From Escherichia coli (GTDB lineage Bacteria > Pseudomonadota > Gammaproteobacteria > Enterobacterales > Enterobacteriaceae), in the NCBI RefSeq assembly GCF_016026235.1, contig NZ_CP065613.1: a stretch of 64,000 nucleotides of DNA; one strand, given 5' to 3'. This document shows positions 9,001 through 12,000 of the stretch, in pieces (position 1 is the stretch's first letter; each line of letters begins with the position of its first letter). Position numbers: made by a program.

Positions 9001-12000
9001 CATCCGCTTTCATCGCAGCAGCCGGGTGTGCCTTAATCAGCACATCACCGTTCTGCGTTTCCGTGCGGTAGGTATAACCCTCAACATCGAGGGTTTCGCA
9101 GTGATGCCGGTATTCGGTGTAGGCTTCCACCAGCAACTCGAGTGCACGCGCATCAAGCTGAGAAATGATCCCTTCCGCATTCAGCTCTTCCGCCATTCGC
9201 CTGAACCAGTACTTTCCCTGCGCCCCTAAATGCTGCGGAATTTTAGGGAGACCTTTTTCGTCCTTTTTAGCGGTTTTTTTGGCGTCTTTAACGGGACGCT
9301 TTGAGGGATTGCCTCGTATCAAATGCAGGCGTGGCGGGGTTTTCGGGGGTCCTGACATAATCGATTTTACCTATCAATCGCTTGATCGCATTCCCAAAAA
9401 AAAGTTTTCGAACCTGCGGCGATGCGAGGAAGGGTTGGCGGGCGGTCCCGGACAGCCAGGGCTGCAGGGATTTGACCCGCCCCTCCCTACAAGTGAGAAT
9501 AATTATCACCTGATTCGTTCGCGCGCTGTTTTCGCTTTATGGCAGGGCCAGCACAGACTCTGCAGGTTGCTGTCTGCGTCTGTTCCGCCATGCGCTTTCG
9601 GGATGATGTGGTCGACGGTTTTCGCCTCGCTCACCACACCGACACGCAGACACAACTGACACAGACCTTTATCGCGCTTCAGAATACGGGCACGAATCAC
9701 CGTCCATTTTGAGCCATAGCCACGCTGGTGGCGGCTCAGTCCGCGCTGGTGCTGCACCCAGCCTTCACCGCGATGCTTATCGCAGTAACCCGAACTGTCT
9801 GTGGTTGTACCTGCACATCCACGCTTACGGCAGGCACGTGGGATTAGTGATGGCATAAATACCTCATACCCTGCGAAATGTTTACCACGATAAAAAGGCT
9901 ACTTAATGCACTGAGTGCGGATATACTCCTGTGCCCCTTCCAGTTGCATCTGCATCGTCATCAGCCGCTCTCTGAGGGTGAAATAATCCCGTTCAGCGGT
10001 GTCTGCCAGTCGGGGGCTGGTTGCATTATCCACGCCGGAGGCGGTGGTGGCTTCACGCACTGACTGACAGACTGCTTTGATGTGCAACCGACGACGACCA
10101 GCGGCAACATCAGCGCGCAGAGTTTCATTTTCAGCTTTCGCATCAGCTAACTCCTTCGTGTATTTAGCATCGAGTGCATTAACATCACGCTGTCTCTGCT
10201 GCATGTCAGTAATGGTTGCGTTCGCCAGCTTCAGTTCTCTTGCGTTTTTGTCGCGCTGCTCTTTGTAGGTAATGGCGTTATCACGGTAATGATTAACAGC
10301 CCATGACAGGCAGACGATGATGCAGATAACCAGAGCGGAGATAATCGCGGTGACTCTGCTCATTGCTGCCCCCACAAACAGACTTCACGCTCAATCTCAC
10401 GACGGGTCATCAGCCCTTTCCATTGCTTACCGCCAGCATATGGCCAGCGACGTAGCTGGTCACATGCGCCTTTGATATCGCCCTGGTTTATTTTGCGAAG
10501 AAGCATCGATGTTCTGAAATTGCCAGCGCCCACGTTGTAAACGAACGAGTAAAGAGCGCCGCGCGTTGTTTCCGGTATATCGACTTTGATGTACGGGTTA
10601 ATTTGTCTGGCGACAGTGGCAAGGTCTTTATTCAGGAGGGCTTTGCATTCTGCTTCGGTATACGTTTTACCGAGCATGATGTCTTTTCCGGTGTGTCCGT
10701 GGCATACAGTCCATACGCCAACGATATCTTTGTATGGTATGTAGCTGACACCTTCCAGACCATCGTTACCACCTGGGCCAGTGATGAGCACAGACGCTAT
10801 GGCAATAGCCCCACCACCAATAGCAACTGCAACAGCCTTGCGTAATGATGGCGACATTATTCACCTCTCGCAGCCTTACGCTTGTCTTCTCTGATTTTGA
10901 AGTACAGATTTGTCAGATAAGTCAGGAAGCCCAGAACCAGACTCCCCAGTACACCAATCGCAGCCCACTGTGACGGACTGACCTGATCAAGCCACTGTAA
11001 AAACCAGTAGCCAGCACTGCCTGCGGAGGTGCCGTAGGCAATGCCCGTTGAAATTTTGTCCATGGATTTCATAGCCTCACCTCCGCAAATAACGGATGGC
11101 GTAGTTTTACACTGAGAAATGAAAGGGATTTGAAAAGAAAAAACCGCAAAAGCGGGCGAAACGATATATACAGTAAGGAAAGCACTCTATCCAACAAACC
11201 ACTCACAGTTAATCGGAATAAAAGCAGAGTGCTTATGAATGATCGCCTGCCCGAAGGTTAGTATTTCTGCACAGCAATTTTGCAAAAAAAAGCGATCATT
11301 CATAACTTAAACGTCTTTCAGTCACTCCGGGATTTCCCATCATCGCAGACTGAAAGACTCTAACTGGAGCGGGCAGCGGGAATCGAACCCGCATCATCAG
11401 CTTGGAAGGCTGAGGTAATAGCCATTATACGATGCCCGCATATGGTGCCGACTACCGGAATCGAACTGGTGACCTACTGATTACAAGTCAGTTGCTCTAC
11501 CTACTGAGCCAAGTCGGCACTGGACCGCCACCGGGGACTCGAACCTCGCACACTCAACTTAAAGGGTTGACGCTCTTTCCTGATGAGCTAGTGGCGGTTG
11601 GTGGCCCTTGCTGGATTTGAACCAGCGACCTGGCGATTATGAGTCGCTCGCTCTCACCACTGAGCTAAAGGGCCGGGCGCAGGATAATAACGTTACGAAA
11701 TCAATGTTGCAAGCATTCAAAAATCCCCCTTATCTCCTCCACCAGCGCATTCACCATGTCTATCCGAGATAAGTGGCACAAAAAACCCGCTTGTGGGCGG
11801 GTTTTGTTTGCTTTTGCCATCACGTACAAAATCGGCAAAATATCAGATTTGCATGAATATATGCCTTTCAATCTACTTTTGCAACACTTTGCTTTGAAAA
11901 TGCCGTCTTTTTTTTGAACGTGTTCTCATTACAAACAATAAAGCCTCACTATCCAGTCGGTGAAAAATGTGTTTCATTGCAACCCAGTGACGAGTAAATG

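What the first reader, a model, noticed from the sequence alone, without database searches (positions are those of the whole stretch)
11235..11674. Prophage late-region tRNA cluster including one tRNA with an atypical anticodon loop
Four tRNA genes lie between the Q-like gene and the lysis cassette: Ile2 (CAU), a tRNA whose anticodon loop reads CCUUUAA (C at position 33, anticodon UUU if canonical), Thr (UGU) and Gly (UCC). Two of them carry A-C mismatches in the T-stem. Phage tRNA moron clusters at this position are known in Stx-type lambdoid phages, but this composition differs from the ileZ-argN-argO set I recall; the atypical tRNA could be a pseudo-tRNA or a decoding variant. A 14-bp inverted repeat (TTATGAATGATCGC...GCGATCATTCATAA, about 11235-11305) and a second hairpin sit just downstream.
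Basis: seen in the sequence. Interest (0 to 1): 0.55.

Follow-up and report, generated by a model that had tools for sequence, protein, structure and literature searches.

The report
Prophage tRNA array with C33 lysine tRNA
A prophage in this E. coli window carries four tightly packed tRNA genes between its late-gene activator and its lysis genes, and one of them is a phage-lineage arginine-tRNA body re-fitted with a lysine anticodon and an almost never seen C (instead of U) next to the anticodon; it is a real, widespread gene that probably keeps lysine decoding going when host lysine tRNA is attacked, but this has not been tested.

Summary
Four tRNA genes lie on the minus strand at 11674-11365, between a Q-like antiterminator and holin/endolysin/spanin: ileZ-type Ile2(CAU), an odd Lys(UUU), Thr(UGU) and Gly(UCC). 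The odd gene has a clean 5-bp stem and a 7-nt loop, CCUUUAA (C33). Both inverted repeats are real.

The CAU gene is identical to Stx-phage ileZ. Thr and Gly are copies of host thrU (one change) and glyT (identical). The Lys gene belongs to the Stx-phage argN family. It differs from argN at U33C, C35U and G36U, and by two-sided pair changes in the stems.

The family occurs in 2144 of 5426 complete E. coli genomes. About 750 records match the window gene at 95% identity or more, and RefSeq names the intact form tRNA-Lys. A U33 Lys version exists but is rare. A conserved sigma-70-like promoter sits 9 nt upstream of ileZ.

By published determinants, this Lys tRNA lacks every feature that PARIS AriB and P2 OLD need to cut host tRNA-Lys. 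Thr and Gly keep the host target sites.

Best reading: a self-promoted tRNA moron whose Lys member is a nuclease-evading substitute. Rivals are a decaying pseudo-tRNA and plain tRNA supplementation. Expression, charging and the role of C33 are untested. I found no paper on this gene.

The parts
11856..11884 (-). pR'-like late promoter (TTGCAA-17 nt-TATATT) at the 3' end of the Q gene
   Evidence: Consensus scan, 9 of 12 matches. It sits directly after Q, which ends at 11873. Assignment as the late promoter rests on position only.
11776..11811 (-). Intrinsic terminator (tR'-like) ending a short leader RNA. Q-modified polymerase would read through it into the tRNAs.
   Evidence: 15-nt inverted repeat I2. 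The scan called a terminator-like site on the + strand at 11782-11805. On the minus strand the same hairpin reads AAAACCCGCCCACAAGCGGGUUUUUUGUG, so a run of U follows it there too. Weak isrK/isrJ-like Rfam hits cover 11780-11853 but fall below threshold.
11684..11712 (-). Array-specific sigma-70-like promoter, TTGCAA-17 nt-TATTAT, ending 9 nt before the mature 5' end of the first tRNA
   Evidence: Scan hit. The hexamers are invariant across six divergent contexts while the spacer and flanks vary. In 58 of 61 distinct upstream sequences from 231 loci, TTG of the -35 is 97-100% conserved at fixed spacing, and conservation drops to about 50% just upstream. Activity is inferred, not shown.
11599..11674 (-). 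tRNA-Ile2 (anticodon CAU, read as AUA after lysidine modification), ileZ type
   Evidence: 72.5 bits. 100% identical to ileZ of Stx2a phage F349 and 68/76 identical to K-12 ileX, with one two-sided pair change. RefSeq annotates the same gene as tRNA-Ile.
11521..11597 (-). argN-family phage tRNA with anticodon UUU (Lys) and C33. The loop is CCUUUAA. It has C1-G72, discriminator U73, an encoded CCA and an A51-C63 mismatch.
   Evidence: ARAGORN calls Lys(ttt). Rfam gives 44.4 bits. Alignment to argN. RefSeq annotates it as tRNA-Lys. Family covariation.
11443..11518 (-). tRNA-Thr(UGU), a copy of host thrU
   Evidence: Identical to K-12 thrU except A9G. Most related loci carry A9 like the host, 81 of 93.
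11365..11439 (-). tRNA-Gly(UCC), a copy of host glyT
   Evidence: 100% identical to K-12 glyT over the mature tRNA.
11313..11358 (-). Stem-loop 1 downstream of Gly, with an 11-bp perfect stem
   Evidence: Inverted repeat I3, fold. Found downstream of Gly in 74 of 94 related loci. Role unknown.
11233..11305 (-). Stem-loop 2, with a 14-bp perfect stem and 45 nt between the arms
   Evidence: Inverted repeat I1, fold. Found in 75 of 94 Gly-bearing loci. Role unknown.

Best explanation
The locus is a tRNA moron array of a lambdoid prophage. It can be transcribed from its own constitutive-type promoter. After induction it can also be transcribed by Q-antiterminated read-through from the late promoter. 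RNase P would cut at each 5' end, and 1-3-nt trailers would be trimmed back to the encoded CCA.

Three members raise the supply of low-abundance tRNAs that read A-ending codons: ileZ for AUA, and copies of host thrU for ACA and glyT for GGA.

The fourth is a real tRNA built on the phage argN body. Its anticodon has been switched from Arg (UCG/UCU) to UUU, so lysyl-tRNA synthetase, which reads the anticodon, should charge it with lysine. E. coli already has many tRNA-Lys(UUU) genes, so extra supply is not a convincing reason for it.

The most likely role is a substitute lysine tRNA that survives when defence nucleases cut host tRNA-Lys. Its body lacks every position shown to be needed by the PARIS nuclease AriB, and it lacks the CNG pair used by P2 OLD. 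C33 lies at the bond cut by PrrC and RloC (3' of position 33). It may add protection there, or it may simply be tolerated.

Shown here: the gene, its fold, its ancestry, its spread, its conserved promoter, and its sequence at the nuclease determinants. Inferred: expression, lysine charging, decoding with C33, and nuclease resistance.
For: Real and constrained:
- Two predictors accept it.
- It scores the same as the classical argN (44.4 against 43.0 and 43.4 bits), so the low score belongs to the scaffold.
- Across 41 distinct family sequences, 96.7% of pair cells are standard pairs. Four pairs change on both sides: 4-69, 7-66, 27-43 and 30-40. Three of these separate the Lys type from the Arg type.
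- In 93 loci with the full array, the four genes are equally conserved (pi 0.004-0.023) while the flanks are mosaic (pi 0.27-0.41).
- Changes present in more than one locus keep pairing through U-G wobble, except U8C and the 3-locus G18A. Pair-breaking changes are singletons in the contig survey.

Spread:
- The 701-nt region is in 282 of 5426 complete E. coli genomes.
- About 750 records hold a copy at 95% identity or more.
- It is present in records deposited as phage genomes: vB_EcoS-689R5, vB_EcoM-606R7 and PhiR47_1.
About 115 of the 123 family-member sequences then held, which include three records fetched from other collections, had the C33 loop. Only one contig carries a U33 Lys version.

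Anticodon loop: it equals the E. coli tRNA-Lys loop CUUUUAA apart from C33.

Not codon supply: K-12 has five Lys(UUU) genes at the lysT locus alone. Prophage codon usage shows only modest shifts.

Nuclease determinants:
- AriB cuts host Lys at C40|A41. U39A abolishes cutting; A41C and U16C impair it (PMC12409363).
- The window tRNA has G39, U40, U41 and C16.
- P2 OLD needs paired CNG motifs at 28-30/40-42 and cuts after C (PMC12445682).
- The window tRNA has CAA/UUG there, whereas argN has CAG/CUG.
- Most phage tRNAs with the matching anticodon rescued nuclease toxicity in a 245-tRNA screen.

Own promoter.
Against: U33 is nearly universal, so C33 may weaken decoding (general knowledge; not tested here).

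The commonest allele also carries an A51-C63 mismatch. Its cloverleaf is 2.7 kcal/mol above the computed minimum-energy fold. Host thrU also fails that test, so this is weak.

The discriminator is U73, not the A73 of E. coli tRNA-Lys, which may lower charging.

Two frequent derived alleles, a T12 deletion and a U4/C8/U11 haplotype, are left unannotated by RefSeq. Selection is therefore not strong in resident prophages.

Thr and Gly are plain host copies that keep the AriB site and the OLD motifs. The array as a whole is therefore not a set of resistant tRNAs. Host thrU gave little or no protection against OLD.

Resistance to AriB and OLD would follow from any foreign scaffold, so it does not explain C33.

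I found no published data on base 33 for PrrC. For the yeast gamma-toxin, U33C had no effect.

Conservation across mosaic flanks could reflect recent spread of a module rather than purifying selection.

There is no expression or charging data.
Confidence: 0.45

Rival explanations
1. Decaying pseudo-tRNA. An argN-family gene drifted to UUU with C33 and a T-stem mismatch, no longer works in translation, and persists only because it sits inside a successful tRNA module.
For: - C33 and the A51-C63 mismatch occur together in the commonest allele.
- A better-formed relative exists, with U33 and a fully paired T stem, scoring 53.2 bits.
- The T12-deletion and C8 alleles are frequent and are not called tRNA by RefSeq.
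- The family includes members with 6-, 8- and 11-nt loops that cannot decode normally.
- The minimum-energy fold is not the cloverleaf.
Against: - It scores the same as the classical argN.
- Three two-sided pair changes separate it from argN.
- The resulting loop is exactly the tRNA-Lys loop apart from position 33, including A37 and A38.
- It is no more variable than ileZ, Thr or Gly in 93 loci.
- Positions 33-38 never vary in the C33 copies sampled, although 32 does.
- The C33 form outnumbers the well-formed U33 form by about 100 to 1 in IMG/VR.
- The C8 lineage sits in a visibly defective prophage whose other tRNAs also score lower.
Confidence: 0.25
2. Plain supply. All four genes, Lys included, simply add tRNA dosage for the prophage's and other horizontally acquired genes' A-ending and Lys-rich codon usage. 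C33 is a neutral passenger and there is no link to defence.
For: - All four anticodons read A-ending codons: AUA, AAA, ACA and GGA.
- Thr and Gly are unmodified host copies.
- The late genes use 60 Lys codons per thousand, with AAG at 35% of Lys codons. AUA, ACA and GGA are present at 6.5-10 per thousand.
- The classical reading of ileZ-argN-argO in Stx phages is rare-codon supply (own knowledge).
Against: - tRNA-Lys(UUU) is already encoded by many host genes.
- AGA and AGG are present in this prophage at 3.9-9.5 per thousand. From my recollection of K-12 genome-wide usage, these are its most over-used rare codons. Yet this array has dropped the Arg tRNAs.
- The codon shifts are modest, and the flanking 'host' part of the window is itself atypical, so the comparison is weak.
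Confidence: 0.2
3. Non-decoding tRNA-like RNA. The conserved acceptor, D and T arms serve another purpose while the anticodon arm is free to vary. Candidates are a decoy that ties up anticodon-arm nucleases, a processing punctuation mark in the transcript, or a modifier of Lys-codon frameshifting.
For: One conserved scaffold carries very different and often non-canonical anticodon arms in different prophages. PMC12409363 raises competition and non-productive complexes as a possible mode of action for phage tRNAs.
Against: The window gene has a perfectly regular 5-bp stem and 7-nt loop with a sense anticodon, A37 and A38. Its sequence lacks the AriB and OLD recognition features, which argues against a decoy for those two. 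There is no direct evidence for any of these roles.
Confidence: 0.1

Closest known systems
ileZ-argN-argO tRNA cluster of Stx-converting lambdoid phages (933W type)
   Same: Same place in the genome, between Q/pR'-tR' and the lysis genes. The first gene is identical: ileZ is 100% identical. The conserved promoter-like element upstream is the same. The second gene is homologous: about 90% identity across the combined ileZ-plus-argN block, and 80-90% for the 77-nt gene itself against genes RefSeq annotates as tRNA-Arg. The C1-G72/U73 scaffold is shared, and in Stx2a phages so is the A51-C63 mismatch.
   Different: The second gene reads UUU with C33 instead of UCG with U33. argO (UCU) is replaced by copies of host thrU and glyT. 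Intermediates exist: Ile-Lys(C33)-Arg(UCU) in PPompW prophages and Ile-Arg(UCU)-Thr-Gly.
Phage T5 tRNA-Lys(UUU), the variant that neutralises PARIS (PMC11464382, PMC12409363)
   Same: A phage-encoded Lys(UUU) tRNA that differs from host tRNA-Lys at positions 39 and 41 and has C16, the positions shown to control AriB cleavage.
   Different: It comes from a virulent phage with 23 tRNAs and has an unrelated body. T5 has A39/C40/C41, whereas the window gene has G39/U40/U41. T5 function is shown by experiment; here it is only inferred. I did not see the T5 sequence at position 33. T5 also supplies variant Thr(UGU) and Asn(GUU), whereas the Thr here is the unaltered host sequence.
Phage tRNA-Thr(UGU) genes that rescue P2-OLD toxicity (PMC12445682)
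   Same: A tRNA carried by a phage that meets an anticodon-arm nuclease. Loss of the paired CNG motif is the published route to resistance, and the window Lys gene has lost the CNG pair that argN still has.
   Different: The published rescuers are Thr(UGU) variants. The Thr(UGU) in this array keeps both CNG motifs because it is host thrU, so it should be sensitive.
Eukaryotic cytoplasmic initiator tRNAs with C33 (plants, fungi)
   Same: A natural tRNA with C in place of the near-universal U33 (own knowledge; mentioned in PMC8887486, listed).
   Different: Those are initiators that enter the ribosomal P site directly. This would be an elongator in a bacterium.

Membership tests
Canonical tRNA (Rfam RF00005) | Cloverleaf with a 7-bp acceptor stem, D, anticodon and T arms, scoring above the curated threshold | tested here: met
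   44.4 bits against a gathering score of 29, matching model positions 1-71. ARAGORN also accepts it.
Canonical tRNA (Rfam RF00005) | Conserved tertiary and loop residues: U8, A14, G18-G19, T-loop UUCGA, and a 7-nt anticodon loop with U33 and a purine at 37 | tested here: not met
   U8, A14, G18G19, UUCGAGU and A37 are present. Position 33 is C, not U. This is the only departure in the loops.
argN-type phage tRNA family (second gene of the lambdoid late-region array) | Shared scaffold: acceptor CCGCCAY/RTGGCGG, U73, D arm GCUC-AUCRGGAWA-GAGC, T arm CGRGG-UUCGAGU-CCYCG. Position directly after ileZ. | tested here: met
   Alignments. It lies 1 nt after ileZ, as argN does.
argN-type phage tRNA family (second gene of the lambdoid late-region array) | Arginine anticodon (UCG) | tested here: not met
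   The anticodon is UUU. It is a homologue of argN, not an argN.
E. coli-type tRNA-Lys(UUU) | Anticodon U34 U35 U36 in the loop context C32...A37 A38 | tested here: met
   The loop is CCUUUAA against host CUUUUAA.
E. coli-type tRNA-Lys(UUU) | Discriminator A73 and charging by LysRS | not testable with these tools
   The discriminator is U73. Aminoacylation needs an experiment. That LysRS reads mainly the anticodon is established knowledge, not tested here.
E. coli-type tRNA-Lys(UUU) | Common descent with host lysT-type genes | tested here: not met
   The body is unrelated to lysT outside the universal tRNA positions. It descends from the argN scaffold.
Nuclease-evading phage tRNAs (anti-defence tRNAs) | Same anticodon as a host tRNA targeted by a defence nuclease | tested here: met
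   UUU is the anticodon of the primary AriB and PrrC target.
Nuclease-evading phage tRNAs (anti-defence tRNAs) | Sequence changes at the nuclease's recognition or cleavage positions | tested here: met
   G39/U40/U41 and C16 against host U39/C40/A41 and U16. There is no CNG at 28-30 or 40-42.
Nuclease-evading phage tRNAs (anti-defence tRNAs) | Shown to resist cleavage and to rescue translation or infection | not testable with these tools
   Needs the rescue and cleavage assays of PMC12409363 and PMC12445682.
Host-derived tRNA copies in a phage | Near-identity to a chromosomal tRNA gene of the host | tested here: met
   Thr equals thrU with A9G, and Gly equals glyT at 100%. This applies to those two genes only.

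The most novel reading that the evidence does not exclude
C33 is adaptive rather than tolerated. On this reading, changing the nucleotide 5' of the scissile bond blocks the PrrC/RloC class of anticodon nucleases, which cut 3' of position 33. The foreign argN body already escapes the stem-cutting Toprim nucleases AriB and OLD. The gene would then be a lysine tRNA proof against all known tRNA-Lys nucleases, and the first natural bacterial elongator tRNA that gives up the universal U33 for that purpose.

More broadly, the argN scaffold would act as a cassette whose anticodon arm is repeatedly rewritten in an arms race. The forms seen are Arg UCG, Arg UCU, Lys U33, Lys C33, and odd loops beginning A32-C33.
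Probability: 0.15. Interest if true: 0.8.

Novelty: new variant of a known kind. Interest (0 to 1): 0.5.

Why it matters
Work from 2023 to 2025 showed that phage tRNAs can defeat tRNA-cutting immune systems: PARIS, retron-Eco7 (PtuAB) and P2 OLD. The tested examples I read come from the virulent phage T5 and from an unnamed pool of 245 coliphage tRNAs.

Here a candidate sits in temperate lambdoid prophages carried by roughly one in seven complete E. coli genomes. These include relatives of Shiga-toxin phages. The candidate appears to have its own promoter, so it may be expressed in lysogens.

If it works, resident prophages would quietly alter how well their hosts' abortive-infection systems function. 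P2-lambda-type interference between co-resident elements would then have a tRNA counter-measure.

It is also a natural experiment on U33, one of the most conserved nucleotides in biology. A single C33U swap in an existing rescue assay would answer the question.

If it does not work, it is a well-documented example of anticodon switching and decay in a phage tRNA family, and a warning about the RefSeq label 'tRNA-Lys'.

Tried and rejected
- **Alternative fold giving a conventional loop.** Neither ARAGORN nor Infernal offers one, and the stem UCAAC/GUUGA is unambiguous.
- **Thr and Gly as resistant variants.** Rejected. They are host thrU and glyT and keep the AriB site and the OLD motifs.
- **Minimum-energy folding as a test of function.** Uninformative. 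The window gene does not fold as a cloverleaf by minimum energy, but neither does authentic K-12 thrU.
- **Codon-usage comparison.** Only modest shifts appeared. The non-prophage part of the window is itself atypical (AUA at 11 per thousand), so it is a poor host reference.
- **A prophage-encoded tRNase with the tRNA as self-immunity.** Ten early-region proteins gave no PADLOC hits. PHROGs shows ordinary Rac-like functions: RecE-like exonuclease, CII-like regulator, replication proteins and integrase.
- **Species range.** A scan of one genome per species found the family only in Edwardsiella hoshinae, where the copy has a 6-nt loop. The other 10 hits are sequences from unrelated taxa, mostly Chloroflexi MAGs, that match only the T-arm pattern.
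- **Literature.** Searches on ileZ/argN/argO, C33/U33 in phage tRNAs, PrrC and U33, and prophage Lys/Thr/Gly tRNAs found no paper on this gene.
- **Supplements.** Supplementary tRNA lists for the OLD and AriB papers are not held, so I could not check whether this tRNA was in the 245-tRNA library.
- **NCBIfam.** It gave nothing useful for Q, holin or spanin. PHROGs did.
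Full report
**1. The observation**

ARAGORN finds four tRNA genes on the minus strand:
- CAU at 11674-11599
- UUU at 11597-11521
- UGU at 11518-11443
- UCC at 11439-11365

Rfam's tRNA model finds the same four, at 72.5, 44.4, 72.5 and 64.9 bits against a threshold of 29. The genes are separated by only 1, 2 and 3 nt, and each encodes its own CCA.

The UUU gene has a regular cloverleaf:
- Its anticodon arm is UCAAC-CCUUUAA-GUUGA. That is five standard pairs and a seven-base loop with C32, C33, U34 U35 U36, A37, A38.
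- Neither program offers a fold that restores U33.
The CAU gene also has A27-C43.

The two inverted repeats are exact: 14 nt at 11233-11246/11292-11305 and 11 nt at 11313-11323/11348-11358. The 140-nt stretch folds at -50.1 kcal/mol, z = -5.5 against shuffles.

The neighbours are as described. Upstream lie a Q-like antiterminator (phrog_304, E 1.6e-107), RusA and a DUF968/HNH-type protein. Downstream lie holin, endolysin and an Rz-like spanin. All are on the minus strand.

**2. What each gene is**

- The CAU gene is 100% identical to ileZ of an Stx2a phage. It is 68/76 identical to K-12 ileX, with one two-sided pair change. RefSeq annotates it as tRNA-Ile.
- The Gly gene is identical to K-12 glyT.
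- The Thr gene equals K-12 thrU except A9G. In 81 of 93 related loci it has the host's A9.

So Thr and Gly are captured host genes, joined with 3 nt between them and without the tyrU that separates them on the chromosome. The T-stem mismatch in Thr is simply the host's own.

The UUU gene is not related to host lysT outside the universal positions. It is a homologue of argN, the second gene of the ileZ-argN-argO array of Stx phages:
- Stx phage records align across ileZ plus this gene at about 91.7% identity.
- The pairwise alignment shows the same acceptor stem (C1-G72), the same U73 discriminator, and the same D and T arms. In Stx2a phages the A51-C63 mismatch is shared too.
- The differences concentrate in the anticodon arm: U33 to C, C35 to U, G36 to U, with G30-C40 replaced by A30-U40 and U27-G43 by U27-A43.

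**3. The family**

Related sequence occurs in 2144 of 5426 complete E. coli genomes.
- About 750 records hold a copy at least 95% identical to the window gene.
- RefSeq calls the intact form tRNA-Lys and the more distant ones tRNA-Arg.
- The whole 701-nt region is in 282 genomes.
- It also occurs in records deposited as phage genomes.

Three pattern scans of IMG/VR plus records fetched from RefSeq and GenBank gave 263 loci in all. Among the family-bearing loci the arrays are:
- Ile-Lys-Thr-Gly: 100
- Ile-Arg(UCG)-Arg(UCU): 95
- Ile-Lys-Arg(UCU): 11
- Rarer mixes, including Ile-Arg(UCU)-Thr-Gly

A better-formed lysine version exists. It has loop CUUUUAU with U33, a fully paired T stem and a compensated U4-A69 pair, and scores 53.2 bits. 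It is rare: one IMG/VR contig matches it. About 115 of the 123 family-member sequences then held, three of them from records fetched outside IMG/VR, carried the C33 loop.

The window gene scores 44.4 bits, the same as argN at 43.0 and 43.4. The modest score is therefore a property of the scaffold, not of C33.

On 41 distinct 77-nt family sequences:
- The cloverleaf holds in 96.7% of pair cells.
- Four pairs change on both sides.
- All slid controls fall to 29-53% paired.
- The rows are closely related, so this represents a handful of events, not 55.

Within 93 loci carrying the full array:
- The four genes are similarly conserved: pi 0.004, 0.023, 0.011 and 0.014.
- The flanks are mosaic: pi 0.27-0.41.
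- The anchor I used fixes about half of the Lys gene, so its value is a lower bound.

In the C33 copies, changes present in more than one locus are C-to-U changes that keep a U-G wobble. The exceptions are U8C and a 3-locus G18A. Pair-breaking changes are singletons in the contig survey. Positions 33-38 never vary, while 32 does.

Against this, two frequent derived alleles are not annotated as tRNA by RefSeq: a T12 deletion, and a U4/C8/U11 haplotype found in a visibly defective prophage.

**4. Expression signals**

Directly after Q there is a pR'-like promoter (11884-11856). A strong intrinsic terminator follows (11811-11776). This is the usual late-leader arrangement.

A second element, TTGCAA-17 nt-TATTAT (11712-11684), ends 9 nt before the first tRNA.
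- Its hexamers are invariant in six otherwise divergent contexts.
- Across 61 distinct upstream sequences from 231 loci, TTG of the -35 is 97-100% conserved at fixed spacing.
- Conservation collapses to about 50% immediately upstream.

I read this as the array's own promoter. If so, the tRNAs can be made in lysogens as well as after induction. This is inferred from conservation, not shown.

**5. Mechanism**

Codon supply explains ileZ, thrU and glyT reasonably well, because each has few host genes and reads an A-ending codon. It does not explain a lysine tRNA, because K-12 has five Lys(UUU) genes at one locus alone. The prophage's codon shifts are modest. This prophage uses AGA and AGG at 3.9-9.5 per thousand, which I recall to be well above genome-wide E. 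coli usage, yet its array has no Arg tRNA.

The recent literature offers a better fit.

PARIS (AriB):
- AriB cuts host tRNA-Lys(UUU), Thr(UGU) and Asn(GUU) between C40 and A41.
- U39A abolishes cutting. A41C and U16C impair it.
- T5's Lys variant, with A39, C41 and C16, escapes (PMC12409363 and PMC11464382).

P2 OLD:
- It cuts tRNAs that have paired CNG motifs at 28-30/40-42.
- It cuts after the C.
- It cuts host Lys once, at the site after C40 (PMC12445682).

The window gene has C16, G39, U40 and U41, and CAA/UUG in place of the CNG pair. argN still has CAG/CUG. By published determinants it should therefore escape both nucleases.

PrrC and RloC cut 3' of position 33. C33 sits exactly there, but I found no data on how base 33 affects them. 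For the unrelated yeast gamma-toxin, U33C made no difference.

The Thr gene keeps both the AriB site and the CNG motifs, so it is not a resistant variant. Overexpressed host thrU gave little protection against OLD. The anti-defence reading therefore applies to the Lys gene only.

**6. Weighing**

I put 0.45 on a working lysine tRNA whose value lies in surviving tRNA-Lys nucleases. Within that, C33 is more likely tolerated than adaptive.

The rivals:
- 0.25 on a non-functional relic
- 0.20 on plain supply
- 0.10 on a non-decoding tRNA-like role

The last is kept alive by a side observation. The same scaffold carries 6-, 8- and 11-nt loops, and 82-nt forms with loops beginning A32-C33, in other prophages. 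One is a prophage in Edwardsiella hoshinae.

**7. Novelty**

The genes are in public annotation, and the idea of nuclease-evading phage tRNAs is established. I could not find any description of three things:
- this gene as an anticodon-switched argN
- its C33
- its fit to the AriB and OLD determinants

It is a new variant of a known kind. It can be tested in days with existing assays.

Noticed in passing
Related loci L022 1469-1550(-), L257 726-807(-), L139 601-682(+), L223 3553-3630(-), L126 1096-1172(-): The argN-type scaffold also occurs with non-canonical anticodon arms. There are 82-nt forms with 2 nt between the D and anticodon stems and loops beginning A32-C33: ACGUAUU in 9 contigs and ACCAGAU. 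There is an 11-nt loop that RefSeq calls tRNA-OTHER, an 8-nt loop CUUUUUAU, and a 6-nt loop in an Edwardsiella hoshinae prophage beside Gly(UCC). Most fall below Rfam's threshold; the 8-nt-loop and Edwardsiella copies pass it at 45.1 and 30.8 bits. Whether they are decayed, decoys or something else is unknown.
   Followed up: partly
window 11684-11712 (-): A sigma-70-like promoter (TTGCAA-17-TATTAT) lies 9 nt upstream of ileZ. It is conserved in nearly all 231 loci examined, including Stx phages, while its surroundings diverge. This suggests that lambdoid tRNA arrays are transcribed independently of Q.
   Followed up: yes
window 11443-11518 and 11365-11439 (-): The prophage Thr and Gly genes are captured host thrU and glyT, fused with a 3-nt spacer and lacking the intervening tyrU. 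thrU is the main target of P2 OLD and a main target of PARIS, yet the copy is unaltered.
   Followed up: yes
window 11233-11358 (-): Two very stable stem-loops follow the Gly gene in about 75% of Gly-bearing loci. Other loci have an unrelated downstream sequence. There is no Rfam match, and no clear run of U follows either stem.
   Followed up: partly
window 11780-11853 (-): The short leader between the pR'-like promoter and its terminator gives weak, sub-threshold Rfam hits to isrK and isrJ (22.7 and 24.5 bits), which are Salmonella prophage sRNAs.
   Followed up: no
RefSeq E. coli genomes (hits H71-H82); L002 1806-1881; L141 601-677: Two common derived alleles of the Lys gene are left unannotated by RefSeq. 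One has a T12 deletion and occurs in O145/O111-type PPompW prophages. The other is a U4/C8/U11 haplotype. The intact allele is called tRNA-Lys, so annotation of this gene is inconsistent across genomes. Two deposited phage genomes also omit it (H1, H2).
   Followed up: partly
window 14575-14750 (-), 21759-21810 (+), 22452-24893 (+), 25155-26195 (+), 26223-26312 (-): The rest of the prophage looks Rac/Qin-like. It has a sok antitoxin RNA (118.9 bits), DicF (76.7 bits), an 813-aa RecE-like exonuclease, and an integrase next to tRNA-Ser(CGA). Ten early-region proteins gave no PADLOC defence hit.
   Followed up: partly
window 27304-27379, 41683-41758, 43507-43582, 45915-45990: Four tRNA-Asn(GUU) genes lie in the chromosomal part of the window, with a 2643-aa ORF (27742-35673) after the first one. 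tRNA-Asn(GUU) is a secondary PARIS target, but the prophage array carries no Asn gene.
   Followed up: no
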